The notes under the pieces were generated by a model. It ran no database searches and was not told the DNA's origin. It saw only the letters and a program-made list of their open reading frames with translations. Source: Bryobacteraceae bacterium (GTDB lineage Bacteria; Acidobacteriota; Terriglobia; Bryobacterales; Bryobacteraceae). From it: a stretch of 64,000 nucleotides of DNA. The translations under genes and the position numbers were made by a program. Positions 15,782 through 55,445 of the stretch are shown here, one piece after another. The DNA lies in assembly GCA_036003585.1 (NCBI GenBank), contig DASYSG010000045.1, positions 37,094 through 101,093 on the forward strand. The letters are read 5' to 3'. Each line of letters begins with the position of its first letter. Positions within the stretch are counted from its first letter, which is position 1.

Positions 15782-15806
15782 CTTAACAAACTAACTCCAT
15801 AGCAAC

Positions 15807-22636: not shown

Positions 22637-22641
22637 GGAAT

Positions 22642-30612: not shown

Positions 30613-30852
30613 ATGACGGATTTCGAGCAGCTGCAAAAACTGGTTGGGCCGGAGGTAAACAATTGGAGCGAAGCGGAGCGGCAGGAGGCGAATGACAACT
30701 TGCGCCAGTACGTCGCTCTCGTGCTGCGTGTTCTTGAACGGCTCGAACTCGATCCGGAAGCAAACGCGCGCTTTGAAGCTTTGACAGAGTGTCGAAGGGG
30801 CCATAGTATGAATGACAAAGAGGCGCAAAACAATTCTTCGACCCATACATGA
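30613..30852 (+). CDS. Small protein coupled to the serine recombinase gene
   Basis: The ATG at 30613 gives 'MTDFEQLQKLVGPEVNNWSEAERQEANDNLRQYVALVLRVLERLE'. Its stop overlaps the recombinase start as ATGA (30849-30852). Confidence 0.45.
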   Translation: MTDFEQLQKLVGPEVNNWSEAERQEANDNLRQYVALVLRVLERLELDPEANARFEALTECRRGHSMNDKEAQNNSSTHT

Positions 30853-39783: not shown

Positions 39784-40005
39784 CTATCGGTGATTCGGCG
39801 AGCCCGGTCTTCTCCGTTCTTGCCGTCTACCCAATAAAGTTCCAACAACATTCAGAAGGCCATACACCAAGTATGAGAGGAGTGGAAATAGAAGGGCGAT
39901 CCACAAAGCAACGTGGAGAACGAAGTAAACGAATGCAGTGATGGGCACCCACAGCAGGAGCAGCAGGAGACCGACACGCCATTTGACGATAAGCGGATTG
40001 CTCAT
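39784..40005 (-). CDS. 73-aa multi-TM protein; candidate immunity protein for RHS-2
   Basis: Its ATG overlaps the RHS stop as ATGA (40002-40005). 'VGLLLLLLWVPITAFVYFVLHVALWIALLFPLLSYLVYGLLNVVGTLLG' is almost entirely hydrophobic. Confidence 0.65.
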   Translation of the reverse strand: MSNPLIVKWRVGLLLLLLWVPITAFVYFVLHVALWIALLFPLLSYLVYGLLNVVGTLLGRRQERRRPGSPNHR

Positions 40006-43000: not shown

Positions 43001-45404
43001 CGTCGTACGTGAAGGTAGTCGTGATGGAATTGTCGGCATCCGCTACAGCGGAGGGCAACCCGCTGTTAAAATCTATTGAATAGGTCGTCGTACGGCCCTC
43101 GGTTAACATCGACGGACTGGGGCACGCGGTGCTGGTCGCCCCCACAAATCGAGCCACTGGATAGAGGTTGTTCGTGCCATAGCAGATGAGCGTTATGACT
43201 CCGTTGGGATCAGTTTGGGACGCTAGATTTCCGTTCGCAAGATACGTGAATGTGCTAGTGATGTTGTTGTTGATCGTGGAATCGTACTGCTGCACTTGTG
43301 TGAGGTTAGCGGTCGTGAGCGCATTGTCGTAGGTGTAGGTCGTGCACGCCGCCGCACTCGCGCACGTCATGCTGTTAACCATTACAGTCTGTTTTGCTCT
43401 GAGATACGTAGGGACTCCGTATTGCTGCCAATACGTCGGGTTTGGAGTGGGCTGAAAATACGCGGTGTTGGTAGTCCTTGCGGCGGTTCCCGAAATCGAC
43501 GTTACAAAAGTGCCTCCGCCTTGCAGTACGCTGCCGCTCGAAAGCCAATCATACTCATATAGAGTAGTCGGATTGCCATTCTGGTCCTGCGTGATTTGGG
43601 CTCCGTTTGAAACACTTAAACCAGGGGGAGTCTGAGTACGGTACTGCACATACGGGTTGAAGATCGCGGATGAAGGCAAACTACCTGGGGTAGGATTGCT
43701 GGTCCACCCCATCAGCGTTACACTCCCATCGCGATTCAAGATCTTGTAGGGCAGAGCCGGACAGAAATCACGCGATTTAAAGGAGGGCGAACACAAGTTC
43801 GCTGTAAAGATTTCGCTAACGCTTCCGTCAGGATAGGTGACTTGGCCCGCCGTACCGGTCTGCGGATAGCTGAATGCATTCGAAGGACCGAGAATTGAGT
43901 AGCTGGTCGTTTCCGTAGTCGTTGAATACTGAAGCACCTTGTTCGTGATGGGGTTAACTGCCGTTGCCGGCGGCCGCGGATAGGTCGCGAGTGGACAGGA
44001 GATCCCCACATCGTAGCAGTAGGTATACGTGGCGTTGTATTGCTGGGTCAAGTTGCCTGTTGTGCCGGTTGACATGGCCAGCGAATGGACTTCACCCCAA
44101 CTGCTGTAGCCAAACGTAAAGCTGCTGAAGGCACCACCGCTTGTGGCGGCGGGTAATTCGATGGAATTGACCACCATGGGCAACGACGTCAGATTAGCCG
44201 CCAAATTGATGGTGGATGCGGTATATGTCGAACCGTCGGGATTGACCAGATTGTAGTATGAAATGCTCGAGTCAGGAGTAAGGCTTGCCCAGTCCACGTT
44301 CGTCGTCAGGTTTCCATGAATTCCTGGCCACGTGATCGTATCGGTCCACGTCCCCCCCGTGTTGGAGCCGTACTGAATCGTGATGCTTCGACCCGGTGAG
44401 GGTACTCCGCCGCTGTCGGTGGGCTTTGTTCCCACGGTTACAGTGCAGGGGCCGGAGGCGCAACTTCGGTCGAATATCAATTGGTTGCCGTTGCGATCTA
44501 TCACCCAGAGCGCGTCGCTGTCATTGGCGTGTCCGCCTGGACTCACGATCGTGGGGAACCAGCCTTGGCTGCTTACTTGACTCCCGTCGGCAAGATATGC
44601 GATCCAGCTTCCGAAGCCGCCATAGACGGACACTTCCACGCGGATGTAGGTGCTGTCACTGGACGCGAATACGAGCGTGCCCAAGAACTGAGTATTTGTC
44701 AGCCCACAACTCTGGCTTGTGTTTCCACCGACATCGTACTGCCAATAAGCATCGTTGGGATCACGGGCGATCGATGTGGATGGAGGGCTAGTGACGACGC
44801 CGTCCTGTATAGTCGCAACCAAAGTCAGCACATGATTGCTCCCATCGGGTGTTTGCAAATAATTTTTGAACCAGGCGTGCTGGCCGACGGTTCCAATTCC
44901 GTCACACTGGTCCGAGAGGTTGAAATCAGGATAGCGCGGCTGGGACCAGAGCGTATAGTTGAAACTATAATTCCAGCCTCCCCCGTGCAGGCTACTGGCG
45001 TATCGGTATTGTAATGGATTGCCCGGAATCGCGCTTTGTATGTCATAGATGGTGCTGTTATAGGTCAGATTCACTCCTGTCGCAAGATCACCAGGTCCTG
45101 GCGGCAGGTGCGCCAAGGGGATCGACAGGCCGACGTTGCCAGTGCTGGCATTCACTGACTCGATTTGGCTGAGAGCATACTGGCCGGTCGCCGACGAGCC
45201 TCGGGTCGTCACGCTATCGGGAGGATCAGTGAGCGCGACCTGAGCCAAGGTTGAGCATACAAGGCAATTGATGATGAAGAACAACCGCCAACCCACCACT
45301 CGATTCTTGAGCGCGGATGTCTCTCCTGCCAGCCTTGCGTGGGGACCACGGTTTGGCGGATTTCTGGCAAACTTAGCACTCCCGATGGTTCCTGTTTGGC
45401 CCAT
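40002..45404 (-). CDS. RHS/YD-repeat polymorphic toxin (1800 aa) with a glycine-zipper-rich ~248-aa C-terminal domain
   Basis: RBS GGGAGGAG upstream of the ATG at 45404. YD-type repeats include 'YTYDDLGRQKTV', 'YVYDGNGNLVQKTD', 'YSYDGNGLRVSK' and 'YVYDAFGNLAAE'. The core end is 'RRYDYLPFGDE...QTRYFSSTQGRFQSVDP...WNGYSYVGNNPLTYTDPSGE'. The CT contains 'ILGGAVLDAIGALTGQGELVAIGQTIAGIGGASSIAGGIIG'. Confidence 0.9.
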   Translation of the reverse strand: MGQTGTIGSAKFARNPPNRGPHARLAGETSALKNRVVGWRLFFIINCLVCSTLAQVALTDPPDSVTTRGSSATGQYALSQIESVNASTGNVGLSIPLAHLPPGPGDLATGVNLTYNSTIYDIQSAIPGNPLQYRYASSLHGGGWNYSFNYTLWSQPRYPDFNLSDQCDGIGTVGQHAWFKNYLQTPDGSNHVLTLVATIQDGVVTSPPSTSIARDPNDAYWQYDVGGNTSQSCGLTNTQFLGTLVFASSDSTYIRVEVSVYGGFGSWIAYLADGSQVSSQGWFPTIVSPGGHANDSDALWVIDRNGNQLIFDRSCASGPCTVTVGTKPTDSGGVPSPGRSITIQYGSNTGGTWTDTITWPGIHGNLTTNVDWASLTPDSSISYYNLVNPDGSTYTASTINLAANLTSLPMVVNSIELPAATSGGAFSSFTFGYSSWGEVHSLAMSTGTTGNLTQQYNATYTYCYDVGISCPLATYPRPPATAVNPITNKVLQYSTTTETTSYSILGPSNAFSYPQTGTAGQVTYPDGSVSEIFTANLCSPSFKSRDFCPALPYKILNRDGSVTLMGWTSNPTPGSLPSSAIFNPYVQYRTQTPPGLSVSNGAQITQDQNGNPTTLYEYDWLSSGSVLQGGGTFVTSISGTAARTTNTAYFQPTPNPTYWQQYGVPTYLRAKQTVMVNSMTCASAAACTTYTYDNALTTANLTQVQQYDSTINNNITSTFTYLANGNLASQTDPNGVITLICYGTNNLYPVARFVGATSTACPSPSMLTEGRTTTYSIDFNSGLPSAVADADNSITTTFTYDDLGRQKTVEEQAGSLDRTTTTIYDDVNLSVATSSDDLPGQPLTSKTFYDPVGRVIQIQNGSGTSTNLVDKVYSFSATAHRSYELTSNPHYAADNTTGWTVTTRDPAGRVTRVDNYAGASQPTPGSTDSLTGTVTTTYDVATSGCAGPTVNVTDEANNTHINCPDGLGRLAAVTEPDGTQTNYGHDPLNNLVAVDVAGQSNSTCTLPDNSTHGRCFVYSTLSRLKSATNPESGPVSYVYDGNGNLVQKTDAIGTVTALGPYDGLARLKKKTYSVGGMTVTTPSVFYTYDVGFKGGLSSVCTSTDTSSCISPVSTTTYTHDAFGRIVTSTQTTASNPAYQFTYAYSLTDQLTYMKYPSGRQVKYGLDAADRIATIQNVNANTNYAAISYTAPGGISTMTTGNGVSQQVTWNDRLQPIGLQVNSASNSSLLTLGFYPCPSNATSCTTGNNGNLQSQSIAFPALNGSPALNLTQVYSYGDNLNRLTGVTEGGVSLETYGYAGNGNRWVSYHSQVAPAVLPSLTQETPQASNAFTSANQVVGWTYDANGNVIQPGIAARSFTYDAENRQVTATINGSTASYSYDGNGLRVSKTWNSQTTTYVYDAFGNLAAEYSGAASGSPCGTPTCYVTADHLGSTRMLTDKNGSTTVRRYDYLPFGDEILSGINGRDAAGMGYPSSPDNLLEKFTGQDRDSETANVNSGTGLDWFQTRYFSSTQGRFQSVDPANAGASIADPQTWNGYSYVGNNPLTYTDPSGECFWCILGGAVLDAIGALTGQGELVAIGQTIAGIGGASSIAGGIIGDISSGVNSGPWNEQVPLGGPGALQGAINSGIVIENFENASGGVWYENLPTFPTWFVDVVSGAGDALTFRLTSKIRDRMGSNSVVNQCSGWYESGALAPLAFGVGRLAYAGAAKAIPLLVRGGATEMETALAGSAMRESIKRIGNFGMKPLRSYTQDQIIAKYEGDPAKIMSAATRTSPGFNAAGGAAIGAAVGALAGRPSYCK

Positions 45405-47326: not shown

Positions 47327-48031
47327 ATGCATCCGGCTCTCAATCTTCCGCCGATTCCGGTCGAGCAATTGTTCGCTCAGGTTCAGGACCAGTTAGACAA
47401 AGTAAGCGCATTCCTGCCTGCACTTAATCGCGGCGAAGGCCCGGACGACAACTGCTACAGAGGGATCTTCAAAGGCCTTCTGATAGAAACGCGAGACGGC
47501 TTCACCAACGCAGTCGAGGCATGGAAGGCGAAAGACTACAGAAGGCTCGCTTGGGCAACGCGCAGCCTTGTGGAATTGAAACTCTGGACCAAGTACGTTA
47601 TCGCGTCCAAGGAAAATGCGCTTGCCATTAACCGTGAATACGACGTCGATGGCAGCAACCTCTGGGCGCTTCTGAAACCGGTTCTCAATACGGACGCAGG
47701 TCAGCAACTCTTCTCGCAAGTCTTTTCGATGCCGGTGTTGGAAATGACGACCAAGATTCAGCAACACCTCGAGTCGGTCGGCCTCACCGGAGACGAAGAC
47801 TTTATGAGAATGGCCCAGGTCGCGAAAGAGGTAGGCCTGACGGCCGAATACAAGTACACCAATTCCATCCTGTCCAAGTTCGTGCACGCAACTGGACTTT
47901 CCATCCTTGTCCCTCCCGAGCGGGCCGAAATCCTGATGCCATTGAACTGCATCGGCGCTTGTGTCAACACCAACCAAATCCTGGGCGACGTACATGGTCA
48001 TCTGCCGAAGGTCGGCCTGCCTACCTTCTAA
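47327..48031 (+). CDS. Hypothetical alpha-helical protein
   Basis: The ATG at 47327 gives 'MHPALNLPPIPVEQLF'. It converges on the Ubl operon. Any resemblance to AbiV/DUF5677-type proteins is only an impression. Confidence 0.45.
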   Translation: MHPALNLPPIPVEQLFAQVQDQLDKVSAFLPALNRGEGPDDNCYRGIFKGLLIETRDGFTNAVEAWKAKDYRRLAWATRSLVELKLWTKYVIASKENALAINREYDVDGSNLWALLKPVLNTDAGQQLFSQVFSMPVLEMTTKIQQHLESVGLTGDEDFMRMAQVAKEVGLTAEYKYTNSILSKFVHATGLSILVPPERAEILMPLNCIGACVNTNQILGDVHGHLPKVGLPTF

Positions 48032-48091
48032 ACAAGAATGCCCCGGATTCCCGGCTCGATCTGGTACGTACAGGATGGGAATAGTTTTTAT

Positions 48092-48616
48092 TCAACGCCG
48101 CCGAAAGCGCCCGCTTGCAGGCGCACGACCCTCGATCGCCTTGCCAAGGAGGCAGAGCCTTCGGCAACAACGCAGAACATCCCAAGGTTCAGTGTCAGGG
48201 ATTTGATCGGATATTTCTTCCGCTGACTGGTCATTGTTGGACAGTACTTCTAGCACTCGCCGCGGAAGCTCGTCCTCGTCCGCGTCAGCTTCGTCTATCC
48301 ACGACTCACCGTATCGCGCTCCAAACAGAAGAATATCATCACGCCATATGATGAAGTGGCTCTTGCAATCGGTGTCGCGCCACACCGACGGGTATACGCT
48401 CGTTCCCTTGGACGATTCATACATGCGCCATGCGGGACCGGCACGGCGGTCGAGATTCACAGGCACCTCAGCGCCGCACCCGCAAGGGCAACAGAGGATC
48501 AACCAGCGCGGTCCCTGTCTATCCACGATGACTGCATCTCCCGCCCGCTTCAAATGTGCGCTCGCTTTCTCGCGCGAACCCACCCTTGCTTTGATAGAAA
48601 AACGTTTGTTCAACAT
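48092..48616 (-). CDS. Cys-rich 'CPCGC' protein, DUF6527-like, with an acidic C-terminal extension
   Basis: 'RWLILCCPCGCGAEVPVNL...SVYPSVWRDTDCKSHFIIWRDDIL'. The ATG at 48616 overlaps the upstream gene by 7 nt. Confidence 0.6.
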   Translation of the reverse strand: MLNKRFSIKARVGSREKASAHLKRAGDAVIVDRQGPRWLILCCPCGCGAEVPVNLDRRAGPAWRMYESSKGTSVYPSVWRDTDCKSHFIIWRDDILLFGARYGESWIDEADADEDELPRRVLEVLSNNDQSAEEISDQIPDTEPWDVLRCCRRLCLLGKAIEGRAPASGRFRRR

Positions 48617-50343
48617 CGTTCTCCAGCCTTGGACCGGCGCTTCCTTCTACCTGAGGCTGTTGTTGCCTTCGGGGCTGTTTCACGAAAAAGTTTTTGACCA
48701 AAGAGAAATGCGATCGCGCGTGATACGTTCGGAGCTTCGGCTTCTAGGTTCTCATTCGTGTTGCAACCCTTGCGAATAAGACAAAGCGCGAGAGTCAGAG
48801 CGTATTGACCGGGCTCATGTTCTGCCGACCAGCTCAGGGTCCGGATCTGGTTGACAGCGTCGTAGTACCATTCTGTGGAATGTCCTCGCGGGCAGTGTGT
48901 CGTCCCGCCTTTAAGAGCAGATTGCTCATAGAGCGGTTCGATCGACTTAACGAGCTCGACCGGTGTGAATCTGCTGTTTTTGAGATCCTCGATGAAGCCC
49001 TCGACTAAAAGCCCGCCTTCCAAAGAGGCCGGGTCATAAGTTAGCGGAAAGTGCTCTTCTAATTTCTCGAAATCTATGAGTATCGCATCGCCGTGGCGAA
49101 CAAGCACGTTCGAGGCATGCATGTCACCATGCGCTGGCGCAATCAGCGGCGAGGTATTTCCGTGGAGTTCAAACAGTTTCTTAAGCGGCGCAACGTCGCT
49201 ATCTCCTCCAAGAGTGTGGACAATGTTCGCTCGTTTGGGAGGCAACGCGATAAGAGCATTCGAACCCTCCATGTGCCATTTCATCTCTAAATAACCGCTA
49301 AGCGATAATGTCGTGTCGAGACTTTTCTGTTTGCGCCAACCGCCAAGCGTCTTGTCGAACAAATTCGAGATGGCATGGCCGCAGCGCTCCCCCCGCGCGC
49401 ACGTTATCAGCGACTCTGCGCCGCCTACAAAATCGCCCACGAGGATCCCCTGCGTTGATCCCAGATTGCAGCGGTCCCGACGCAGGCGCGGTCCGAGGTG
49501 AAAAGGCACATATTCAAATATGTAGCCGCAATATTTATCGTACTCGTCCACGACCTTCTTTCGTGGTCCAAGTTTTACGAAATATAGATGCGGGTAAGGA
49601 CCCGCTACCCCCCGTGGTACGGCGTCAACGACTGGCGCGACCCGACTGTAAAAGCCAGAATCTAGCCACGCATACGCTTTAAAGACGGGCGCACCAGACA
49701 TCCCGCCGTCGAGCAATGTTAGTTTGAGTTCGGAGCAATTCCAGAAGGCCCGCTTGAGCAACATAACGCGTTCCGAGTGCCCGTCGGACCCAAATATGTC
49801 ACGAAGAAAGTCTTCGTCGACTTTCAATTCGGATTTCTGGAACGGACCGGCGGGCCGATCGCAGACCAAAGCCGCAACATCCGGCCAGGACGACGCCGAT
49901 TCGAAGATGTAGACGCACGGCAACAGAAAGCCATTTTCTCTCTCGCGAAGAAGTTCCGGCGTCGTTCGCCACTCAGTCGGTCGAAGATTTGCAACAGGAA
50001 TCGCGTTTTCTAGTAGCGTGTTGACGACCAGTCTTCGGGGCGTATCGGTGCGATTCTCGTCTGTTGCGAGACGAATATAGACCCGGACGTCGTGGTTGAG
50101 CAGATTGGCGGCAATCGTCTGCAGTTCTCGAGGCAAAGTATTCAACTTGTTCGGGTCCTGCGTCCAAATCACCGCATCCAATCCACTGGCATATTCAGAG
50201 TCGCAAAGCTTCTCCGGTGTGCACCACCCGCATTGAAAGTTTCGCTCTGTAAATCGGTCGAGGTACTTTGCGGGCGGCAAGCTTGGGATGAAAGCAATTT
50301 TAGCTCGTGGCGTACTTTGGGGCGAAAATTCGTGAATCGCCAT
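48610..50343 (-). CDS. 577-aa protein with an unknown alpha/beta N-domain and a C-terminal APH/choline-kinase-like protein-kinase fold
   Basis: 'LLDGGMSGAPVFKAY' is the Gly-rich loop, 'LYFVKLG' holds the Lys, 'HGDMHASNVLVRHGDAILIDFEKL' covers the catalytic loop and metal-binding Asp. The ATG at 50343 lies 1 nt after the E1 stop. Confidence 0.6.
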   Translation of the reverse strand: MAIHEFSPQSTPRAKIAFIPSLPPAKYLDRFTERNFQCGWCTPEKLCDSEYASGLDAVIWTQDPNKLNTLPRELQTIAANLLNHDVRVYIRLATDENRTDTPRRLVVNTLLENAIPVANLRPTEWRTTPELLRERENGFLLPCVYIFESASSWPDVAALVCDRPAGPFQKSELKVDEDFLRDIFGSDGHSERVMLLKRAFWNCSELKLTLLDGGMSGAPVFKAYAWLDSGFYSRVAPVVDAVPRGVAGPYPHLYFVKLGPRKKVVDEYDKYCGYIFEYVPFHLGPRLRRDRCNLGSTQGILVGDFVGGAESLITCARGERCGHAISNLFDKTLGGWRKQKSLDTTLSLSGYLEMKWHMEGSNALIALPPKRANIVHTLGGDSDVAPLKKLFELHGNTSPLIAPAHGDMHASNVLVRHGDAILIDFEKLEEHFPLTYDPASLEGGLLVEGFIEDLKNSRFTPVELVKSIEPLYEQSALKGGTTHCPRGHSTEWYYDAVNQIRTLSWSAEHEPGQYALTLALCLIRKGCNTNENLEAEAPNVSRAIAFLFGQKLFRETAPKATTASGRRKRRSKAGERC

Positions 50344-50344
50344 C

Positions 50345-51679
50345 TCAATCGTCCCGTGTGAAAAGGGGTTGCGCTTCTCCCCGTCCGAGAACTCCCTGCG
50401 GAGAGCAAATATAGCAATTTGGATTTCTAGTGAACGATACGGTCCTAAGCGACGGAGTTCGTGCGTTGTAGAGGATGTTTCGGCCGTCGCTTGGAATGCC
50501 TACCGTCATGGCCAGAAACATCGTCATCGCGATCGAGCTCACGGTGCCATTGATCGAGATGACGGCCGGTGCAGGTTCGTAGGCGCCTAGGATATACGAA
50601 TCCCGTTGGCGTTCTTCGACGTTCATCATATCTCGCCGAACCTCTTCGGAATCGAGCAACTCACAGCAGGTGAAGCAGGGCAGCCCAGGCGCGAGCGCCT
50701 GCACGCGGCCATGTATGCCCGCGATGTGACCATCGCTTGCCGAGATGACTGAACCCACGTCGATGCACGGAATGAGGTATTGATACGCGATCTGTTGGAT
50801 AACCGCACGGCTTCCGTGTGAGTCAGTACAGGAGAAGATGAAATCTGCGCCCCGCAGTTCGCGGGCGAATCGCGTCCTCGTTACATCACCCACGATCCGG
50901 TGCGAGACCGAGTCGGATACGATGCGCGCAATCATGTCCGCGATCACATCTGTCTTAAAGCGGCCGACATCACTAGCGTAGGCCCCGACGACTCGGTTCA
51001 GATTAGTCAATTCGATGCGATCGGGATCGATGAGAATGAACTTGCGTACACCCAAATAGGCGAGCTGTTCAGCAGCTATGGAGCCAGTGCCACCGGCGCC
51101 GACTATAGCCACCGTCAGCGATTCAAGATGCTTCTGTCCCGCGGCACCCAATGCGCGGATCTGGCGGTCGAATTTCAGGGAAGCAGGCGCTTGAGCATTC
51201 TCCGGGTCGAACAGAATCTGCAGCTGCGGACCCACGGAAATGATGCGTAACGGCATCTTTGTGCCCAGACATCGAGCCCGCCACCCGCCTTCGCTGACCA
51301 CTACGGCAACATGCTTTGTACCTGGCGCGCGTACGGATAGGAAGTGTTCCAGATGAACCTCGCCTTGGTCATCTGTCCGGGAGAACCCCGGTGGCACTGA
51401 CCTAGGATGCGAGTGTACGAAAACGACCGAAAGACTTTCGCGCGCCGCCGTCTTGCCGATACGAGCAATATAGTCGGGTTTCAGTTCCGCACTTACTAAG
51501 CTGCGATTCGAATAACTTTCATTGTCCGGATACTCGATACGGGTTACGATGAGGCGCTCTAAGCCATCAGGTAAAACAACGCGCGACGCAAGCAGGATAG
51601 CGCATCGTTCAGTCTCGCGGCCTACGAGTTCGCCGACGATTCGGCTAACGTCACTGTCTTGAATCCTAAGCTCGATCAT
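50345..51679 (-). CDS. JAB::E1 fusion (Prok-JAB-like N-domain plus ThiF-type adenylyltransferase)
   Basis: JAB motifs are 'TERCAILLA' and 'VVFVHSHPRSVPPGFSRTD'. E1 motifs are 'VAIVGAGGTGSIAAEQLAYLGVRKFILIDPDRIELTNLNRV' and 'LPCFTCCE'. The ATG at 51679 overlaps the E2 stop as ATGA (51676-51679). Confidence 0.8.
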   Translation of the reverse strand: MIELRIQDSDVSRIVGELVGRETERCAILLASRVVLPDGLERLIVTRIEYPDNESYSNRSLVSAELKPDYIARIGKTAARESLSVVFVHSHPRSVPPGFSRTDDQGEVHLEHFLSVRAPGTKHVAVVVSEGGWRARCLGTKMPLRIISVGPQLQILFDPENAQAPASLKFDRQIRALGAAGQKHLESLTVAIVGAGGTGSIAAEQLAYLGVRKFILIDPDRIELTNLNRVVGAYASDVGRFKTDVIADMIARIVSDSVSHRIVGDVTRTRFARELRGADFIFSCTDSHGSRAVIQQIAYQYLIPCIDVGSVISASDGHIAGIHGRVQALAPGLPCFTCCELLDSEEVRRDMMNVEERQRDSYILGAYEPAPAVISINGTVSSIAMTMFLAMTVGIPSDGRNILYNARTPSLRTVSFTRNPNCYICSPQGVLGRGEAQPLFTRDD

Positions 51680-52074
51680 CGTGGTGGATTCATTCGCTGA
51701 AGGATCGCCCATAAAAAGCTCTCAAGCCGACTGCGGTTCGGATCCCACACCTGAAGATGCCAAGAAAACCATGTCAGTGGACGTCCCGCAACGAGATCGT
51801 ACGGTAATGGAGTTCCTTCGTTCGCGTTCTGCGGAATAGCACCATTGGAGAGGCGCACTGGTGGAGCGACCCAGAAGCAGTCGGGCTTGGCGGCAGGATA
51901 CCCAGGAGGGGCGATGAAAAAGATGTCAACCTTCCGAGGGCTCCAGCCCTCCGGTAGCTCGACGCCCTTAATCGTGATGAGATACGAGCCGTCCGAGCGG
52001 CGCTGAATGTCGGCGCCCTGATTCTTGAACTCCTTTAGATAACCCTGGAGTTCTATAAATTGTTCGCCAATCAT
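51676..52074 (-). CDS. Prokaryotic E2/UBC-like protein (Prok-E2_E-like)
   Basis: 'VELPEGWSPRKVDIFFIAPPGYPAAKPDCFWVAPPVRL' has a UBC-like PxxYP flap and a candidate catalytic Cys. It overlaps both neighbours as ATGA. Confidence 0.65.
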   Translation of the reverse strand: MIGEQFIELQGYLKEFKNQGADIQRRSDGSYLITIKGVELPEGWSPRKVDIFFIAPPGYPAAKPDCFWVAPPVRLSNGAIPQNANEGTPLPYDLVAGRPLTWFSWHLQVWDPNRSRLESFLWAILQRMNPPR

Positions 52075-52316
52075 CCTAAACCAAACGTGGCTGGTGGGAC
52101 ACCAAAGAAATGTTTCACGCGCTCGGTGATGCTCACCGCTTCGCCGTCGCCAATGCCCTTGTCTGGTCTATCACCCTCTTCTTCAAAGAAGAGCTGATAG
52201 TTTGGAGCGACGTTGGCAATCGCCTTTATCTCGGACCCGGTGAGCGCGGTTTTGGCGGTTTCGTAACGCTTGGCATCCACAAAGAACGGATGAAGTGATT
52301 TGGCTACTTCGGACAT
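52071..52316 (-). CDS. 81-aa ubiquitin-like protein (Multiubiquitin-domain-like) ending in Gly
   Basis: RBS AAGGAG 7 nt upstream of the ATG at 52316. 'FFVDAKRYETAKTALTGSEIKAIANV...GEAVSITERVKHFFGVPPATFGLG' then stop. Confidence 0.65.
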   Translation of the reverse strand: MSEVAKSLHPFFVDAKRYETAKTALTGSEIKAIANVAPNYQLFFEEEGDRPDKGIGDGEAVSITERVKHFFGVPPATFGLG

Positions 52317-52338
52317 GCAGTACTCCTTTTTGCGGTTT

Positions 52339-53202
52339 TCATTCGTCGTGTTTCACGTCTTCAAACTGACTACGATTGGCCCACACGATTGGCTGAGCCT
52401 CCTGAGCTTCGTCAATGCGTAGGTGTCGTACAAAATACGAAACTAAGGCGCGTCGGATCGTTTTAGACAACCTTCCATCCAGCATACCCAAATCATTGAT
52501 AACAGACTCTTTTTGGCTGATCGTTAGATTTGGATTGGGTTCAATGTCAACCACGAAAAAAGTCTGCCATTCAACGTCGTCTTGGAGATCTATGCTACCC
52601 GCGCGGCGTCCGTGAGTTTCTTGGATTCGCGTCAGTACGAAGTCTCGAAATCGAGAAGCGCTGTAACACCATGCGCGCGCATGCCAGCGTGTGCCATCGA
52701 AGGCTAGCGAATGAGGGGCAATCCACTGACGCGTCGGATCGGGACTGCGCATCGATTGGTACGTTATGTCGAGGTCTGTGCCATCACGTATCGCCCATAG
52801 GATTGGCAACAGTACTTCCTTACGCACGCGTCGCACCGGTAAAGTTACGACGTCGCATGGCGGCCGAGCCCCCATAAAGCTGAGCGCCGGCGAAATTGTT
52901 CCTGTAGCCAATCCTGAAAGTTCGTTGAGGTAGGTCTGGGTGTCGGGCACGATGAATAACGGCGTGAATTGTTTTGTCGAGCGATAGACCTTGTCGCGAC
53001 GGTCATACTCCATGTTGTTCCTGGCTAGGGCCATGTATTTTGCGAAGTCCGAGGATGCATGTTGAATTGAGACGTTGAAATATTCCGCCACTTCGCCGCG
53101 ATTGATTTTCCCATCCCACAGCAAGCGAAATTCGATGAATTCCAAGCGCCGATTTTGGCCCCATGGCCGGGGGCGCGGGTTTAGATCCCTATCAGTAAGC
53201 AT
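52339..53202 (-). CDS. HTH plus WYL-domain transcriptional regulator (CapW/BrxR-like)
   Basis: The N-terminal wHTH is 'RLEFIEFRLLWDGKINRGEVAEYFNVSIQHASSDFAKY'. The WYL core is 'LDITYQSMRSPDPTRQWIAPHSLAFDGTRWHARAWCYSASRFRDFVLTRI'. Confidence 0.7.
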   Translation of the reverse strand: MLTDRDLNPRPRPWGQNRRLEFIEFRLLWDGKINRGEVAEYFNVSIQHASSDFAKYMALARNNMEYDRRDKVYRSTKQFTPLFIVPDTQTYLNELSGLATGTISPALSFMGARPPCDVVTLPVRRVRKEVLLPILWAIRDGTDLDITYQSMRSPDPTRQWIAPHSLAFDGTRWHARAWCYSASRFRDFVLTRIQETHGRRAGSIDLQDDVEWQTFFVVDIEPNPNLTISQKESVINDLGMLDGRLSKTIRRALVSYFVRHLRIDEAQEAQPIVWANRSQFEDVKHDE

Positions 53203-53220
53203 GACAAAAATGCCGATACA

Positions 53221-54117
53221 TCATCTATTACGATTAATCGTATAATACGACGTATCGGCCCGGAAGTCAATAGGGTGCGTTTCGAGTCCCAGTGCACCAG
53301 CTTGTGTCGATTGCAGCCGCAAACGGTAAGAACGCCATTTGCTTCGGGTTTTACATAATTCACATGCCTTCCTCTGCATGATCATTGAGCCACCGTCGAA
53401 CTTCGGATCAGACAGGCTGAGCCGCCGGTAATTCCACGCGCGCGGCCGCTCCGTGGTTAGCGTGTCCACAGAATAGACTGCGGGCGATCCGACCGCCTGC
53501 AATACGTCGGTGATGGCAGGTGTTCCCGGACACGGATAGCGGTCGTCGTTCACGATGTCTGGAAACAGGCACGCGATGCACGGGCCGTCCTTGTCCTGAA
53601 CGAACACGTAGCGGTGATCAGCGTCGCGGCTGACGGCGGTGAAGATGCCCGGAATCTCCTTCGCGCGGAAGTACCAGCTCGCCGTGACACGAGCCGGATT
53701 GTTGTCCACGCCGCAGATCACAACGTCACAGGCGAGATCGATGCCGCGGGCGATCGCGTCCTCAAACTGCAATGGGTAGCCGCGGATATTTGTCGCAACG
53801 ATACATTCCGGCTGAAGATTCCGGGCCAGGGCGATCGCCTTGTTCTCGCCAATATCCTTCACATAAAACCTCTGGCGGTTCAGGTTGGTCGGTTCGACTA
53901 CGTCATTATCGAGTACGGTGATCTGCCCGACGCCTTTGCGCACGAGCGTCGGTGCGATCTGGCACATGATCCCGCCCGCCCCGATGCACAGGACGTGGGC
54001 GCGAGTAAAAGTCTCCTGATCAAACCCGAGGATCTATCGCTGGCGGTCCAGGGCTCCGGTGATCGCCTGGCCGCGCAATTCAATCGAGGTTCTTGAGCCG
54101 GTAAACGCCGGGTGCAT
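53221..54117 (-). pseudogene. Decayed paralog of the ThiF-type E1 gene at 18162..18941, interrupted by an in-frame TAG
   Basis: The start 'MHPAFTGSRTSIELRGQAITGALDRQR' runs into TAG (54034-54036) and continues in the same frame as 'ILGFDQETFTRAHVLCIGAGGIMCQIAPTLV...'. About three quarters of residues match copy 1 by eye. DNA homology ends near 53350 and the normal stop is lost. Confidence 0.7.
53229..53250. promoter_or_regulatory. Array of inverted TACGA half-sites (candidate operator) 27-48 nt upstream of the WYL gene start
   Basis: TACGATTAATCGTA (53229-53242) is a perfect 14-bp palindrome. TCGTA-TAA-TACGA (53238-53250) shares the middle half-site. AT-rich hexamers (TATTAT / TAATAG on the minus strand) overlap it. 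Confidence 0.5.
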
Positions 54118-54400
54118 ATATTTCAACTCCTGCGCCAAGGATTTCAAGTTCACAATTCCGGTCGAGCCGGATGAAGTGGACGTAGCCGTCCCGGCTAAAG
54201 ATCGCCATGAGTGCCATATGTCCAGCCCTTTCGAGCCGACGCTGGAAGTTCTCATCGGTTCCCGAAGGATGCGTCGCGTCAGGCCCCCGGCCGGGATGAC
54301 TGTGGAAGTGCGCCCGCAAAACCTCCGGCCTATGCCAACTTTTCTTCGCGTCGTAAGTAGGCAGCCGATTCAATTGCATCCCGGTGGGCCTGCCACGCAC
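54080..54400 (-). pseudogene. 5'-truncated paralog of the JAB gene at 18904..19563
   Basis: 'LRAHFHSHPGRGPDATHPSGTDENFQRRLERAGHMALMAIFSRDGYVHFIRLDRNCELEILGAGVEIYAPGVYRLKNLD' aligns with the C-terminal ~80 aa of copy 1. The N-terminal ~140 aa are absent. Confidence 0.7.
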
Positions 54401-55168
54401 GTGAGGTTGCGCTGGGACGGCGAAGACGAACTCGCCGCTGGGGCTGAATCAAAATGGAAGTTCAGAGGTAGATGTACCTCTCATCCAGACTTCCCAAACC
54501 CGATATTCACTCTTCCCCGCCGCGGAAGCTTTGAAGCCTTGGTGGAACCTCCCGACGATGTTTCCGCAAACACCGAATTGACGTTTCAAATAGAAGCCAT
54601 TGGTCCGAAGAGCGAACTACTAGCAACATCATTTCACGCCGTCGTCGCAGAGCTTGCGGAACCCGAAGGCCCGCGCAAGATATCAGAGGAGAGCGCAGGA
54701 ATGAAGGGGCGGCGGGCGCCCTATATCCTCCGATTTGTCACCGAGGCGGAGTGGAAGGATACACAGTGCTGGGGAGCGACTGAGTGGACCTCCGAAGACT
54801 CCGGATGCTATCAGGAGCCAACCCAGTCAAATCCGCTCGTCCTCGTCATTAATGAAGATTCCGCACTTCTGAGGTCAGCTAGGGATGCGATGATCGGTCG
54901 TAAGCTAGACGAGTCCACGATTAAGCGCCGCGTCAACAACTACACGGCACATATTGCCTACCACCTCTGGCAGATGTATCAGTATACGCAAAACATGAAA
55001 GCGCTTAACGCGGTGGATGACACTGCGCCCGTTCCCGATGATGATCAGCTCCGAGGAGAAATCAATCGGGTGGCAGCAACCCTCATAAATCTGATGGAGC
55101 AGGAGCTTCGGGGCATCGCCGGGAGGGCGCGTCATGATGTCACTCCGAGCACTCGCGCCGGGACATGA
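54401..55168 (+). CDS. Hypothetical protein, probably the 5'-truncated remnant of a larger gene
   Basis: The 369-aa ORF 54059..55168 is antisense to the JAB/E1 remnants up to ~54400. Only the distal part ('VRLRWDGEDEL...LVINEDSALLRSARDAMIGRKLDESTIKRRVNNYTAHIAYHLWQMYQY') looks protein-like. There is a GTG at 54401 without an RBS. Confidence 0.35.
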   Translation: MRLRWDGEDELAAGAESKWKFRGRCTSHPDFPNPIFTLPRRGSFEALVEPPDDVSANTELTFQIEAIGPKSELLATSFHAVVAELAEPEGPRKISEESAGMKGRRAPYILRFVTEAEWKDTQCWGATEWTSEDSGCYQEPTQSNPLVLVINEDSALLRSARDAMIGRKLDESTIKRRVNNYTAHIAYHLWQMYQYTQNMKALNAVDDTAPVPDDDQLRGEINRVAATLINLMEQELRGIAGRARHDVTPSTRAGT

Positions 55169-55330: not shown

Positions 55331-55360
55331 ACGGCCTCCGAAAGGAGGCCGTATCTTTTT
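55331..55360 (+). terminator. Rho-independent terminator-like hairpin
   Basis: acggcctcc-gaaa-ggaggccgt forms a 9-bp stem and is followed by atcttttt. It lies between the 54401..55168 ORF and the tRNA 3' end. Confidence 0.6.
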
Positions 55361-55368
55361 GATTCTGT

Positions 55369-55445
55369 TGGTCGGGGCGGGGCGATTTGAACGCCCGACC
55401 CCCTGCGCCCAAGGCAGGTGCGCTACCAGGCTGCGCTACGCCCCG
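55369..55445 (-). tRNA. tRNA-Pro (anticodon UGG)
   Basis: The reverse complement folds as a 77-nt cloverleaf: CGGGGCG-TA-GCGC-AGCCTGGTA-GCGC-A-CCTGC-CTTGGGC-GCAGG-GGGTC-GGGCG-TTCAAAT-CGCCC-CGCCCCG-A-CCA. The anticodon is TGG. Confidence 0.9.

What the first reader, a model, noticed from the sequence alone, without database searches (positions are those of the whole stretch)
48092..53260. WYL-regulated ubiquitin-like conjugation operon carrying an extra kinase-fold gene
Six minus-strand genes are packed with almost no intergenic space. In order they are a WYL regulator, an 81-aa Ubl ending in ...FGLG-stop, an E2-like protein ('PPGYPAAKPDCFW'), a JAB::E1 fusion, a 577-aa kinase-fold protein, and a CPCGC Cys-rich protein. 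The junctions seen in the sequence are: RBS AAGGAG before the Ubl gene, ATGA overlaps at 52071-52074 and 51676-51679, a 1-nt spacer at 50344, and a 7-nt overlap at 48610-48616. The Ubl/E2/JAB-E1 core matches the computationally predicted 'multiubiquitin / Prok-E2 family E / ThiF-JAB' operons. Bacterial Ubl systems such as Bil and CBASS Cap2/Cap3 are known to act in anti-phage defence. Two things here do not fit the described four-gene layouts as I know them: a large kinase-like protein is inserted between E1 and the terminal Cys-rich gene, and a CapW/BrxR-type WYL regulator sits in front. I infer a defence or conflict system in which Ubl conjugation is linked to a kinase-like sensor or effector.
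Basis: partly seen in the sequence, partly recalled or inferred. Interest (0 to 1): 0.9.

Follow-up and report, generated by a model that had tools for sequence, protein, structure and literature searches.

The report
Bub ubiquitin-like operon with built-in kinase
This is a real six-gene bacterial ubiquitin-like protein-tagging operon of the recently characterised "Bub" family. It belongs to a widespread but apparently undescribed subtype that always carries its own kinase gene, which could help reveal what these still-mysterious systems act on.

Summary

The core is not merely a computational prediction. It is a Type I Bub (formerly 6E.1/DUF6527) operon, characterised biochemically by Ye, Gong, Chambers & Corbett (2024). 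It comprises a Ubl, an E2 with an Asp/Ser/His centre, a JAB-E1 fusion with a catalytic Tyr, and the BubE serine protease. All of these residues are conserved here.

The WYL gene is a full-length CapW/BrxR homolog. Its association with Bub operons is already published (8% of operons), so that part is not new.

The 577-aa gene is new. It encodes a flavodoxin/receiver-like N-domain plus an APH/choline-kinase-like kinase with every catalytic residue invariant. In 30 complete cassettes, every homolog lies between JAB-E1 and BubE. These span Acidobacteriota, Alpha-/Beta-/Gammaproteobacteria, Binataceae and Deinococcus, and kinase identity falls to about 30%. The kinase diverges in step with the other five proteins (r=0.94-0.98) but faster than any of them. 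The family has about 760 clusters at 50% identity.

None of the held Bub papers, Table S1, PADLOC or NCBIfam describes it.

Verdict: a new variant of a known kind. The kinase's substrate and role are inferred only.

The parts
53242..53270 (-). Sigma-70-like promoter (TTGACT-17 nt-TATTAT) of the six-gene operon.
   Evidence: This is the only promoter-like site in 47800-53600. The -35 TTGAC is aligned and conserved in cassettes from Acidobacteriota and Bradyrhizobium.
53212..53259 (.). Palindromic candidate operator for the CapW-like repressor. It overlaps the -10 element and the transcription start region.
   Evidence: Inverted repeat with 24-nt arms, 79% complementary. A related palindrome (GCGTCGTnTTATAyGATTnATCrT..ACGA) sits at the same position in L004, L010, L003 and L009. 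The operator function itself is inferred.
52339..53202 (-). capW/brxR-type HTH-WYL transcriptional regulator (287 aa), the first gene of the operon.
   Evidence: Pfam WYL 4.9e-11. PADLOC WYL model 1.6e-15. Full-length PDB sequence hits to S. maltophilia CapW 7tb6 (5.3e-64) and BrxR 7t8k (1.6e-39). Homologs in L001 and L003 carry WHD_BrxR+WYL+BrxR_CTD.
52323..52328 (-). Shine-Dalgarno AAGGAG, 6 nt before the Ubl start codon.
   Evidence: Read directly from the sequence.
52071..52316 (-). bubA-like ubiquitin-like protein (81 aa, one beta-grasp domain). Its conserved C-terminus is ...VPPATFG, followed here by a 2-residue 'LG' cap.
   Evidence: Pfam Multi_ubiq 2.3e-9. Alignment of 22 cassettes shows an invariant ATFG followed by 0-2 variable residues and by 0-4 in plasmid variants.
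51676..52074 (-). bubB-like E2 (132 aa). Residues D65, S104 and H106 are equivalent to the catalytic D299/S333/H335 of Citrobacter BubB. Cys66 is invariant within this clade.
   Evidence: Pfam Prok-E2_E 1.7e-11. The only PDB hit is Citrobacter BubB 9eae_C at 5.8e-5, with D65 aligned to the catalytic Asp. PDCFW and WFSWH are invariant in 22 cassettes. The two kinase-less comparators have DMFY instead.
50345..51679 (-). bubCD-like JAB peptidase-E1 fusion (444 aa from the ATGA-overlap start; an alternative ATG lies at 51712).
   Evidence: ThiF 1.8e-41 plus Prok-JAB 1.5e-5. The best PDB hit is Citrobacter BubCD 9ea4 at 2.3e-34 over residues 24-391. JAB residues E24 and the HxH...S..D motif, and the crossover-loop Tyr (equivalent to Y370), are conserved in 22 cassettes. 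The CxxC...CxxC pairs are conserved as well.
49849..50307 (-). N-terminal alpha/beta domain of the 577-aa protein (residues about 13-165). It has a flavodoxin/CheY-receiver-like fold of unknown function and is the fastest-evolving part of the cassette.
   Evidence: AF2 models (pLDDT about 82). Foldseek gives only weak matches; the best is the BrpR receiver 7y19 at E 2.5e-3, TM about 0.5. Identity in the distant clade is 24%, against 38% for the kinase domain.
48676..49746 (-). APH/choline-kinase-like kinase domain of the 577-aa protein (residues about 200-556), predicted to be catalytically active.
   Evidence: Foldseek matches to APH(3')-Ia, maltokinase, glucosamine kinase and choline kinase, E about 2e-6, target TM about 0.5. 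The G-loop, K257, E267, H405-G-D407-x-H-x-x-N412 and D424-F-E are invariant. TCAD9 Pfam hit over residues 400-447.
48610..50343 (-). The whole 577-aa Bub-associated kinase gene. It is translationally coupled to bubCD (1-nt spacer) and to bubE (7-nt overlap).
   Evidence: It occupies the same position in all 30 complete cassettes examined.
48092..48616 (-). bubE (DUF6527, 174 aa). It has a C4 zinc site (CPCGC...C) and a Ser/His dyad (YPS-VWRDTD-C-KS-H), followed by an acidic C-terminal extension.
   Evidence: Pfam DUF6527 4.4e-17. The spacing S(+7)C(+3)H is identical to Citrobacter BubE S92/C99/H102 as described in 10.1101/2024.11.21.623953. These residues are invariant in 24 sequences.

Best explanation
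The locus is a six-gene, autoregulated Type I Bub (bacterial ubiquitination-like, formerly 6E.1/DUF6527) operon. It belongs to a distinct subtype that carries a dedicated kinase.

How it works, by homology to the characterised Citrobacter and E. coli systems:
- The CapW/BrxR-type WYL repressor binds the palindrome over the promoter. It releases it on DNA damage or ssDNA, so all six genes are transcribed together.
- The Ubl precursor is trimmed after the invariant ...ATFG, most likely by the JAB domain of BubCD.
- The E1 domain adenylates the Ubl and takes it onto its crossover-loop Tyr.
- The E2 takes it onto Ser104, helped by Asp65 and His106, and passes it to lysines of target proteins.
- BubE, and possibly the JAB domain, remove it again.

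What is inferred here: the 577-aa protein is an integral, catalytically active sixth component. My preferred reading is that it is the specificity/output module. Its fast-evolving receiver-like N-domain and APH-like kinase domain would recognise and phosphorylate a target, either a phage or host protein or a small molecule. Phosphorylation and Ubl conjugation would then act on the same process.

I put about 0.9 on the identity and basic operation as a kinase-bearing Bub subtype. I put about 0.4 on the specificity/output role for the kinase. The confidence given here is for that full mechanism.
For: Identity as Bub: all Pfam models pass their cut-offs. The best PDB sequence hits are Citrobacter BubCD (2.3e-34) and BubB (5.8e-5). 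The catalytic Tyr, the E2 Asp/Ser/His, the JAB motifs and the BubE C4+Ser/His are invariant, matching the residues shown experimentally to be required.

Regulation: full-length CapW/BrxR homology. There is a single promoter with a conserved overlapping palindrome.

The kinase is integral. It sits in the same position in 21 of 21 genome loci with enough flank, in two further loci found by exact-protein look-up, in four plasmid loci including Deinococcus, and in three of three distant family representatives with enough flank. It is translationally coupled on both sides. Its pairwise divergence correlates with all five partners (r=0.94-0.975; Mantel 0 of 2000 permutations reach the observed value).

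The kinase is active: all catalytic residues are invariant.

The specificity/output reading rests on three points. The kinase is the least conserved component (mean pairwise identity 0.48, against 0.55-0.64), and its N-domain is the least conserved part. Canonical Bub operons encode no E3 or effector. APH-like kinase domains are classed among effector domains in ternary conflict systems (PMC7159879).

Context: the cassette lies in a tRNA-Pro island with CBASS-like genes and RHS toxins. Plasmid copies lie next to CBASS, RES-Xre and HEPN genes.
Against: No experiment addresses the kinase. Its substrate class is unknown, and its nearest solved structures are all small-molecule kinases at 11-15% identity.

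Faster evolution may simply reflect weaker constraint.

Bub operons have not been shown to defend against phage, so 'target' may mean a host stress-response protein.

The N-domain has no confident fold assignment.

The E1 carries Cys residues (CxxCC) at the start of the crossover loop, and the E2 has an invariant Cys next to the catalytic Asp. Oxyester-only chemistry therefore cannot be assumed for this subtype.

The published 2025-26 versions of the Bub papers are not held, so they may already mention the kinase.
Confidence: 0.4

Rival explanations
1. The kinase is an internal regulator of the cascade. It phosphorylates a Bub component: the Ubl (as PINK1 does to ubiquitin), the catalytic hydroxyls of the E1 Tyr or E2 Ser, or BubE. 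This would switch conjugation or deconjugation on or off.
For: The Bub relay runs through hydroxyl nucleophiles (Tyr, Ser), which are chemically the residues that kinases modify. The kinase is translationally coupled to E1 and BubE, implying matched expression. It co-diverges tightly with all partners, as expected for proteins that contact each other. The subtype-specific invariant Cys66 beside the E2 catalytic Asp shows that the E2 active site changed together with acquisition of the kinase.
Against: Kinase-less Bub operons work without such a regulator. An internal regulator would be expected to evolve more slowly than, or in step with, its fixed partners. Here it is the fastest-evolving component. 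There is no direct evidence of any interaction, and the apparent kinase-BubE fusion turned out to be a frameshift.
Confidence: 0.3
2. The kinase is the cargo of the pathway. The Ubl would be conjugated to the kinase (or the kinase to a target) to prime or activate it, by analogy with Cap2 priming the CD-NTase in Type II CBASS. BubE and JAB would reverse this. The activated kinase would then be the effector.
For: In Type II CBASS the extra enzyme encoded with the E1/E2/JAB genes is the thing being conjugated (summarised). The kinase has a variable, disordered and often Lys/Arg-rich C-terminal tail that could accept a Ubl. Canonical Bub operons have no known specific target.
Against: This is analogy only. 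A separate Ubl gene is kept, and the kinase C-terminus does not end in a conserved Gly, so the kinase is not itself the modifier. Tail composition is not conserved in the distant clade.
Confidence: 0.15
3. The system is a DNA-damage or general stress-response module rather than an anti-phage system. The kinase would tune a host pathway.
For: Bub operons have not been shown to protect against phage, and their regulators (CapW, CapH/CapP, CapK/CapS) respond to DNA damage. No copy of the kinase was found in phage genomes or viral contigs.
Against: The cassette is horizontally mobile. It sits in islands and plasmids next to CBASS, RES-Xre, HEPN and RHS genes. Its fastest-evolving part is a putative recognition domain. 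Both features are typical of conflict systems. This rival concerns the biological role, so it can be combined with any of the mechanistic readings.
Confidence: 0.3
4. The kinase is a hitch-hiking small-molecule or antibiotic phosphotransferase, or a chance insertion, with no functional link to the Bub genes.
For: The nearest structures are aminoglycoside and sugar kinases, and RefSeq calls homologs simply 'phosphotransferase'.
Against: The position is identical in all 30 complete cassettes, across at least four phyla and down to about 30% identity. The gene is translationally coupled on both sides and co-diverges with the partners at r>0.93. No family member with enough flank to judge was found outside a Bub operon. 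Identity to APH enzymes is only 11-15%, and the family profile finds no PDB sequence.
Confidence: 0.02

Closest known systems
Type I Bub (6E.1 / DUF6527) operons: Ye, Gong, Chambers & Corbett, bioRxiv 10.1101/2024.11.21.623953; Gong et al., 10.1101/2024.11.21.623966
   Same: The Ubl (Multi_ubiq), E2 (Prok-E2_E with Asp/Ser/His), JAB-E1 fusion with crossover-loop Tyr, and BubE (C4 zinc + Ser/His) appear in the same order. The best PDB sequence hits are Citrobacter BubCD and BubB. Ubl and E2 are separate genes, as in 31 catalogued Type I operons. A CapW regulator is present, as in 8% of catalogued operons.
   Different: A 480-580-aa kinase gene lies between bubCD and bubE. The word 'kinase' is absent from both papers and their supplements. 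In Table S1 only one row (B. tropiciagri) shows an unexplained one-gene gap at that position. The E1s of the kinase-bearing operons form a separate identity group (41-49% to the window, against at most 33% for other plasmid-borne BubCDs). The E2 has an invariant Cys next to the catalytic Asp, where the kinase-less comparators have Met. The Ubl precursor carries a 0-4-residue cap rather than a fused E2.
CapW / BrxR WYL repressors (PDB 7tb6, 7tb5, 9c5g, 7t8k)
   Same: Full-length sequence homology (E down to 5e-64). The gene lies directly upstream of a conflict-type operon, and a palindrome overlaps the promoter.
   Different: Nothing notable. Here the gene is co-directional and is apparently the first cistron of the operon, as with BrxR. 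It is present in the main clade (23 cassettes) but was not detected in the distant plasmid variants. One of those, in Deinococcus, has an XRE-family regulator upstream instead.
Pfam TCAD9 (PF19974), a protein-kinase-like family named from vWA-MoxR-VMAP ternary conflict systems (PMC7159879); APH/choline-kinase clan
   Same: Kinase fold of the APH/ChoK type, with the HGDxHxxN catalytic loop and a DFE metal-binding motif. It formally passes the TCAD9 gathering score, and homologs are pre-annotated as TCAD9 (some also as APH).
   Different: Only 48 of the 429 model positions match. No vWA, MoxR or VMAP genes are nearby. There is a distinct N-terminal receiver-like domain. The gene is dedicated to Bub operons. 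Identity to solved APH-like kinases is 11-15%, and the family profile gives no PDB sequence hit.
CapK/CapS (PMC13373217), the only kinase so far linked to Bub operons
   Same: A kinase genetically associated with Bub operons.
   Different: CapK is an HTH-STAS-GHKL (anti-sigma-factor-type) kinase. It is encoded upstream together with CapS and acts as a transcriptional controller. The protein here has a protein-kinase-like/APH fold, lies inside the operon between E1 and BubE, and co-occurs with a different regulator (CapW).
Type II CBASS Cap2/Cap3 and Bil (BilABCD)
   Same: Bacterial E1/E2/JAB machinery encoded in defence-island contexts. In CBASS an additional enzyme is encoded with the conjugation genes.
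   Different: CBASS has an E1-E2 fusion, no free Ubl and a CD-NTase. Bil has separate JAB and E1 genes with a Cys domain and uses thioester chemistry. Neither has DUF6527/BubE or this kinase. PADLOC E1-E2 models match only the ThiF portion of the E1 here.

Membership tests
Type I Bub (6E.1/DUF6527) operon | A DUF6527/BubE gene with a C4 zinc site and a Ser/His catalytic dyad | tested here: met
   PF20137 4.4e-17. CPCGC...S-x6-C-x2-H has the same spacing as Citrobacter S92/C99/H102 and is invariant in 24 sequences.
Type I Bub (6E.1/DUF6527) operon | A JAB peptidase-E1 fusion (BubCD) with intact JAMM residues and adenylation domain | tested here: met
   ThiF 1.8e-41 plus Prok-JAB 1.5e-5. Best PDB hit is Citrobacter BubCD 9ea4 at 2.3e-34 over both domains. 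E24 and HSHP...S..D are conserved.
Type I Bub (6E.1/DUF6527) operon | An invariant Tyr in the E1 crossover loop (Y370 equivalent) as the catalytic nucleophile | tested here: met
   The Tyr in RDSYILG aligns with chain residue Y372, which is native Y370, of 9ea4. It is invariant in 22 cassettes.
Type I Bub (6E.1/DUF6527) operon | No cysteine in the E1 crossover loop | tested here: inconclusive
   A conserved PCFTCC / C..C motif lies at the start of the loop region. It pairs with a C-terminal CxxC, which probably forms a MoeB/ThiF-type zinc site. The same CxxC pairs occur in the kinase-less R. phaseoli BubCD. This is therefore not disqualifying, but a thioester route cannot be excluded from sequence alone.
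Type I Bub (6E.1/DUF6527) operon | A Prok-E2_E-type E2 with the Asp/Ser/His catalytic cluster (D299/S333/H335) | tested here: met
   PF14462 1.7e-11. The only PDB hit is Citrobacter BubB, with D65 aligned to D299. The WFSWH motif (S104, H106) is invariant.
Type I Bub (6E.1/DUF6527) operon | A beta-grasp Ubl (BubA) with a C-terminal Gly exposed by processing | tested here: met
   Multi_ubiq 2.3e-9. The invariant ...ATFG is followed by 0-4 variable residues. The processing step itself is inferred.
Type I Bub (6E.1/DUF6527) operon | A Ubl-E2 fusion (BubAB) | tested here: not met
   Ubl and E2 are separate genes with an ATGA overlap. This feature is not defining, because Table S1 lists 31 Type I operons with separate Ubl and E2 genes.
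Type I Bub (6E.1/DUF6527) operon | ATP-dependent Ubl conjugation through oxyester intermediates, reversed by BubE | not testable with these tools
   This needs biochemistry. It is known only for the Citrobacter and E. coli systems.
CapW/BrxR WYL regulators | wHTH-WYL-WCX architecture with full-length homology to CapW/BrxR | tested here: met
   7tb6 5.3e-64, 7tb5, 9c5g, 7t8k 1.6e-39, each covering about residues 10-270. WYL Pfam hit. Homologs carry WHD_BrxR+WYL+BrxR_CTD.
CapW/BrxR WYL regulators | Encoded next to the controlled operon, with a palindromic operator at its promoter | tested here: met
   Promoter at 53242-53270 and palindrome at 53212-53259, conserved across loci. Binding was not tested.
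CapW/BrxR WYL regulators | De-repression by ssDNA or DNA damage | not testable with these tools
   Known for characterised CapW proteins (cited).
Pfam TCAD9 (PF19974) | A match to the family model above the gathering score across the whole domain | tested here: inconclusive
   41.2 bits against a cut-off of 40, but only residues 400-447 match model positions 296-343 of 429. All 120 listed homologs carry a precomputed TCAD9 hit.
Pfam TCAD9 (PF19974) | Association with vWA-MoxR-VMAP ternary systems | tested here: not met
   None of the annotated neighbourhoods contains vWA, MoxR or VMAP genes. All are Bub cassettes.
Protein-kinase-like superfamily, APH/choline-kinase branch | Bilobal kinase fold with G-loop, beta3 Lys, alphaC Glu, HxDxxxxN catalytic loop and DFG-equivalent Asp | tested here: met
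   AF2 model with pLDDT 81. Foldseek matches to APH(3')-Ia, MaK, glucosamine kinase and choline kinase, E about 2e-6 to 3e-5. G214/S216/G217, K257, E267, H405-G-D407, N412 and D424 are invariant.
Protein-kinase-like superfamily, APH/choline-kinase branch | Aminoglycoside or other small-molecule substrate | not testable with these tools
   There is only structural resemblance at 11-15% identity. The Pfam APH model gives no hit for the window protein at E<0.01.
CapK (Bub-associated regulatory kinase) | HTH-STAS-GHKL architecture, encoded upstream with CapS | tested here: not met
   The protein here has a different fold (APH-like) and a different position (between E1 and BubE). No STAS or GHKL Pfam hits. 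CapK is defined in PMC13373217.
Bil (BilABCD) and Type II CBASS (Cap2/Cap3) | Bil: stand-alone JAB plus an E1 with a Cys domain. CBASS: an E1-E2 fusion plus a CD-NTase. | tested here: not met
   JAB is fused to the E1 and the E2 is a separate gene. PADLOC E1-E2 (Cap2) models match only the ThiF part. There is no CD-NTase in the cassette.

The most novel reading that the evidence does not exclude
This kinase family is a dedicated, so far unnamed seventh Bub component. It would couple phosphorylation directly to a hydroxyl-based (Tyr/Ser oxyester) ubiquitin-like relay. One possibility is that it phosphorylates the Ubl or the catalytic Tyr/Ser, giving a bacterial counterpart of PINK1-type phospho-control. 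Another is that it marks targets for Ubl attachment, giving a phosphodegron-like, E3-free targeting mechanism. The subtype's invariant E2 Cys next to the catalytic Asp would reflect a matching change in the transfer chemistry.
Probability: 0.25. Interest if true: 0.8.

Novelty: new variant of a known kind. Interest (0 to 1): 0.6.

Why it matters
Bub pathways are the most divergent ubiquitination-like systems known. They use oxyester intermediates and a new protease family, yet their targets and biological role are still unknown, and no phage protection has been shown.

A widespread subtype with a dedicated, catalytically intact kinase gives an experimental handle. This subtype comprises about 760 protein clusters at 50% identity. 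It spans at least four phyla and is carried on islands and megaplasmids. The kinase's substrates, or its dependence on Ubl conjugation, could reveal what Bub systems act on.

It would also be, as far as I know, the first case of a kinase built into a bacterial Ubl-conjugation operon. That is relevant to how the phosphorylation-ubiquitination cross-talk so central in eukaryotes can arise.

Practically, current annotation (PGAP 'phosphotransferase', Pfam TCAD9, no PADLOC or NCBIfam model) mislabels or misses this component.

Tried and rejected
(1) Kinase-BubE gene fusion as evidence of interaction. P0193 (713 aa) carries both TCAD9 and BubE hits. However, the kinase's conserved C-terminal helix is missing from the ORF and is found in another frame, ending in a stop just before BubE. 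It is a frameshift in one SRA-assembled contig, so I rejected it as evidence.

(2) The kinase as CapK, the published Bub-associated kinase. Rejected: CapK has a GHKL fold and is an upstream regulator paired with CapS.

(3) The second ThiF ORF (53221-53967) and the JAMM-motif ORF (54080-54400) as extra parts of the system. Rejected. They are a decayed duplicate (72-80% nt identity, in-frame TAG, truncated JAB) of an intact JAB-E1 pair at 18162-19683. They are also absent from other cassettes.

(4) The 369-aa plus-strand ORF 54059-55168 as a real gene. It has no Pfam or NCBIfam hit. It mirrors an antisense ORF over the intact JAB copy. It is probably a shadow ORF.

(5) E1 CxxC pairs as a signature of the subtype. 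Rejected: they also occur in the kinase-less R. phaseoli BubCD.

(6) Identifying the N-domain by fold search. Only weak CheY/flavodoxin/cobalamin-binding-like matches were found, none with E<=1e-3.

(7) Phage or viral carriage. There were no hits in 50,697 phage genomes or in IMG/VR.

(8) Literature. Burroughs et al. 2011 (PMC5938088) is not held. The published versions of the Bub papers are not held. Searches on multiubiquitin+kinase and on 6E.1/Prok-E2 found nothing relevant. I read only the Type I rows and part of the Type II rows of Table S1 (parts 1-3 of 7).

Full report
OBSERVATION. Every junction is present in the sequence: AAGGAG 6 nt before the Ubl ATG, ATGA overlaps at 52071-52074 and 51676-51679, a 1-nt spacer at 50344, and the 7-nt ATGTTGA overlap at 48610-48616. 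All predicted Pfam families are hit above their curated cut-offs: WYL, Multi_ubiq, Prok-E2_E, ThiF+Prok-JAB and DUF6527. The 577-aa protein hits only TCAD9, marginally (41.2 bits against a cut-off of 40) and over just 48 residues around the catalytic loop. PADLOC v2 and NCBIfam have no specific model for any of the genes; they give only generic WYL and ThiF/E1 matches.

WHAT THE CORE IS. A full-text search for DUF6527 leads to two 2024 preprints from the Corbett laboratory (10.1101/2024.11.21.623953 and 10.1101/2024.11.21.623966). They rename the '6E/DUF6527' operons Bub (bacterial ubiquitination-like). Type I Bub comprises a Ubl, an E2, a JAB-E1 fusion (BubCD) and DUF6527 (BubE). The E1 uses a crossover-loop Tyr and the E2 a Ser (with Asp and His) to carry the Ubl as oxyesters. 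BubE is a zinc-binding Ser/His protease that removes conjugates.

The window's proteins are members of this family by every test I could run.
- The best PDB sequence hit of the JAB-E1 is Citrobacter BubCD (9ea4, 2.3e-34, both domains), and the catalytic Tyr is aligned.
- The only PDB hit of the E2 is Citrobacter BubB (9eae_C). D65 aligns to the catalytic Asp, and the S-x-H motif (S104, H106) follows where expected.
- BubE has CPCGC...S-x6-C-x2-H with exactly the published spacing.
- All of these residues are invariant in 22-24 related cassettes.
- Separate Ubl and E2 genes are not unusual. Table S1 of the Bub paper lists 31 such Type I operons.

It is nevertheless invariant in the kinase-bearing clade. 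Both kinase-less comparators (Citrobacter and R. phaseoli) have Met at that position.

The conserved Ubl terminus is ...VPPATFG, followed by 0-4 variable residues. The window's 'LG' is therefore probably a cap removed during maturation, in the same way that BubC cleaves the BubAB fusion in Citrobacter.

THE REGULATOR. The WYL protein is a full-length CapW/BrxR homolog (7tb6 5.3e-64, 7t8k 1.6e-39). The only sigma-70-like promoter in 47800-53600 lies just upstream of it (53242-53270). A palindrome with 24-nt arms (53212-53259) overlaps the promoter. Its sequence and position are conserved in cassettes from Acidobacteriota and Bradyrhizobium. This fits an autoregulated six-gene transcription unit. 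The association of CapW with Bub operons is already published: 43 of 544 operons.

THE 577-AA PROTEIN. An AlphaFold2 model built on 22 homologs (pLDDT 81, pTM 0.76) shows two domains.
- Residues about 200-556 have the kinase fold of the APH/maltokinase/glucosamine-kinase/choline-kinase branch (Foldseek E about 2e-6, target TM about 0.5, 11-15% identity).
- The G-loop, K257, E267, H405-G-D407-x-H-x-x-N412 and D424-F-E are invariant, so it should be an active phosphotransferase.
- Residues about 13-165 form a flavodoxin/CheY-receiver-like alpha/beta domain with no confident structural match.
- A profile of the family finds nothing in the PDB by sequence.
- It is not CapK, the kinase recently linked to Bub operons. 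CapK is an HTH-STAS-GHKL protein encoded upstream with CapS (PMC13373217).

DOES IT BELONG TO THE OPERON? Yes. I counted 30 complete cassettes in which the kinase gene lies between the JAB-E1 and BubE genes.
- A protein search found 185 homologs; the 120 listed are mostly full-length or nearly so.
- The same order, CapW-Ubl-E2-JAB-E1-kinase-BubE, is present in Ferribacterium limneticum and Bradyrhizobium.
- A scan of one genome per species returned 23 loci. All 21 with enough flank have the identical six-gene order. They come from Acidobacteriota, Alpha-, Beta- and Gammaproteobacteria and Binataceae, and kinase identity falls as low as 31%.
- More distant relatives (about 30% identity) on rhizobial megaplasmids and on a Deinococcus plasmid also lie between the JAB-E1 and DUF6527 genes. 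No WYL gene was detected within 5-7 kb of them, and Deinococcus has an XRE-family regulator instead.
- An exhaustive profile search finds 761 clusters at 50% identity (311 at E<=1e-30). Three of three sampled distant representatives with enough flank are again embedded in Ubl-E2-JAB-E1-kinase-BubE.

Across 22 cassettes the pairwise divergence of the kinase correlates with that of each of the other five proteins (r=0.94-0.975). In a Mantel test, 0 of 2000 permutations reach the observed value. Relatedness of the cassettes contributes to this, but the cassette groups mix phyla, which indicates transfer as a unit.

The kinase is the least conserved of the six proteins (mean pairwise identity 0.48, against 0.55-0.64). 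Its N-domain is the least conserved part (24% against 38% in the distant clade).

Among plasmid-borne BubCDs there is a sharp break in identity to the window's E1. Thirteen records are at 41-49%, and twelve of them are kinase-bearing. The exception is an IS-disrupted Roseomonas remnant in which BubE directly follows the E1. All other BubCDs are at 33% or less, for example the canonical CapH/CapP-regulated R. phaseoli operon, which has no kinase. The kinase-bearing operons therefore look like a distinct Bub lineage.

IS IT ALREADY DESCRIBED? I found no description.
- 'Kinase' does not occur in either Bub preprint or in their supplements.
- In Table S1, all Type I rows were read. None of the 31 rows with separate Ubl and E2 genes has a CapW entry. 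Only B. tropiciagri shows a one-gene gap in the gene IDs between E1 and DUF6527, which is probably a silent example of this kinase.
- Kaur et al. 2020 mention only rare APH-like kinases in ternary systems.
- Other searches were negative.
- Limits: Burroughs et al. 2011 and the published 2025-26 versions of the Bub papers are not held, and I have no access to current DefenseFinder.

MECHANISM. The following steps are supported by homology to tested systems: CapW-type repression relieved by ssDNA or DNA damage; Ubl maturation; adenylation; Tyr then Ser oxyester transfer; conjugation to lysines; and reversal by BubE.

The following points are inferred. The kinase is an integral, active component. 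I favour (about 0.4) a specificity/output role, for three reasons. Canonical Bub operons have no E3 or effector. The kinase, and especially its N-domain, evolves fastest. APH-like kinases are treated as effector domains in other conflict systems.

The main rivals are an internal regulator that phosphorylates the Ubl or the catalytic hydroxyls (about 0.3) and a cargo enzyme primed by Ubl conjugation, as in Type II CBASS (about 0.15). Chance insertion or a hitch-hiking resistance gene is effectively excluded. Whether the system defends against phage or serves a DNA-damage response is open, as it is for all Bub operons.

CONTEXT. The cassette lies about 2 kb from the right end of a roughly 51-kb island, bounded by a direct repeat of about 52 bp covering the 3' half of tRNA-Pro(TGG) (4326-4384 and 55359-55417). 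GC content is lower inside the island.

The island also carries:
- a CBASS-like S_4TM+SMODS pair;
- two RHS toxins;
- a tyrosine integrase/DUF2958/relaxase module with an intact JAB-E1 pair;
- a large serine recombinase.

The ThiF and JAB fragments immediately upstream of the cassette are a decayed duplicate of that intact pair, not part of the Bub system.

VERDICT. The real finding is a widespread, kinase-bearing subtype of Type I Bub operons that I could not find described. I rate it a new variant of a known kind, with interest about 0.6.

Noticed in passing
window 4326-4384 and 55359-55417 (tRNA-Pro calls at 4336-4411 and 55369-55445, minus strand): Two tRNA-Pro(TGG) kb apart share an exact repeat of about 52 bp covering the 3' half of the tRNA, while their 5' halves differ. 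GC content is 0.52-0.58 between them and about 0.60 outside. This looks like the attL/attR of a roughly 51-kb tRNA-integrated island that contains the Bub cassette.
   Followed up: partly
window 53221-54450 (minus strand) compared with 18162-19683: The ThiF ORF and the JAMM-motif ORF just upstream of the cassette are a decayed duplicate (72-80% nt identity) of an intact JAB (18904-19683) plus ThiF-type E1 (18162-18977) pair. In the decayed copy the E1's G-loop lies behind an in-frame TAG and the JAB is truncated. The 369-aa plus-strand ORF 54059-55168 mirrors an antisense ORF over the intact copy and is probably not a gene.
   Followed up: yes
window 14864-16667 (plus strand): An S_4TM effector (PF18159, 3.9e-81) is followed by a SMODS nucleotidyltransferase (PF18144, 1.1e-13). 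This is a minimal CBASS-like pair in the same island, convergent with the intact JAB-E1 pair.
   Followed up: no
window 17404-23586 (minus strand): A mobile-element module: tyrosine integrase (20619-22010), DUF2958 (20311-20622), a Replic_Relax protein (22642-23586), a possible small beta-grasp-like ORF inside 19943-20515, and the intact JAB and E1. It may be a nested integrative element carrying its own, non-Bub JAB/E1 system.
   Followed up: partly
window 6017-12061 and 40002-45404 (minus strand); 30849-32438 (plus strand): The island carries two very large RHS-repeat proteins (2014 and 1800 aa; the first also has an F5/8 type C domain) and a large serine recombinase (Resolvase+Recombinase+Zn ribbon).
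   Followed up: no
E2 residue 66 (window 51877-51879); L001-L023, L027, L028, L030: The Cys next to the catalytic Asp of the E2 (PDCFW) is invariant in every kinase-bearing cassette where the motif could be read. It is Met (DMFY) in both kinase-less comparators, Citrobacter BubB and R. phaseoli. This may be a subtype-specific change at the E2 active site.
   Followed up: partly
L001 12267-12854, L014 10279-11313, L023 10210-10779, L015 9553-10092: Several cassettes have a second, diverged BubE (DUF6527) paralog immediately downstream of the first, on either strand. The window has none.
   Followed up: no
L034 1265-3406: An apparent 713-aa kinase-BubE fusion in one SRA-assembled contig is a frameshift. 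The kinase's conserved C-terminal helix and its stop codon are in another frame.
   Followed up: yes
Table S1 of 10.1101/2024.11.21.623953, row Bradyrhizobium tropiciagri: The IMG gene IDs skip one gene between the E1 (2641677677) and DUF6527 (2641677679). This is probably an unremarked kinase-bearing Bub operon, regulated there by CapH/CapP rather than CapW.
   Followed up: no
window 26262-27053: Seven to eight tandem units of 117-138 nt (63-87% identical to the reference copy) lie inside a coding region. They look like a repeat protein, possibly a beta-propeller. Not examined further.
   Followed up: no
L027 12910-15371 (Bradyrhizobium guangxiense plasmid p53363); L028 3298-4388; L030 8934-11239: Plasmid-borne kinase-bearing Bub cassettes sit beside other conflict systems: a Type II CBASS (phospholipase, DncV-like cyclase, ThiF/Cap2), a RES-Xre toxin-antitoxin pair, and a HEPN protein with a DEAD/DEAH helicase.
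   Followed up: partly
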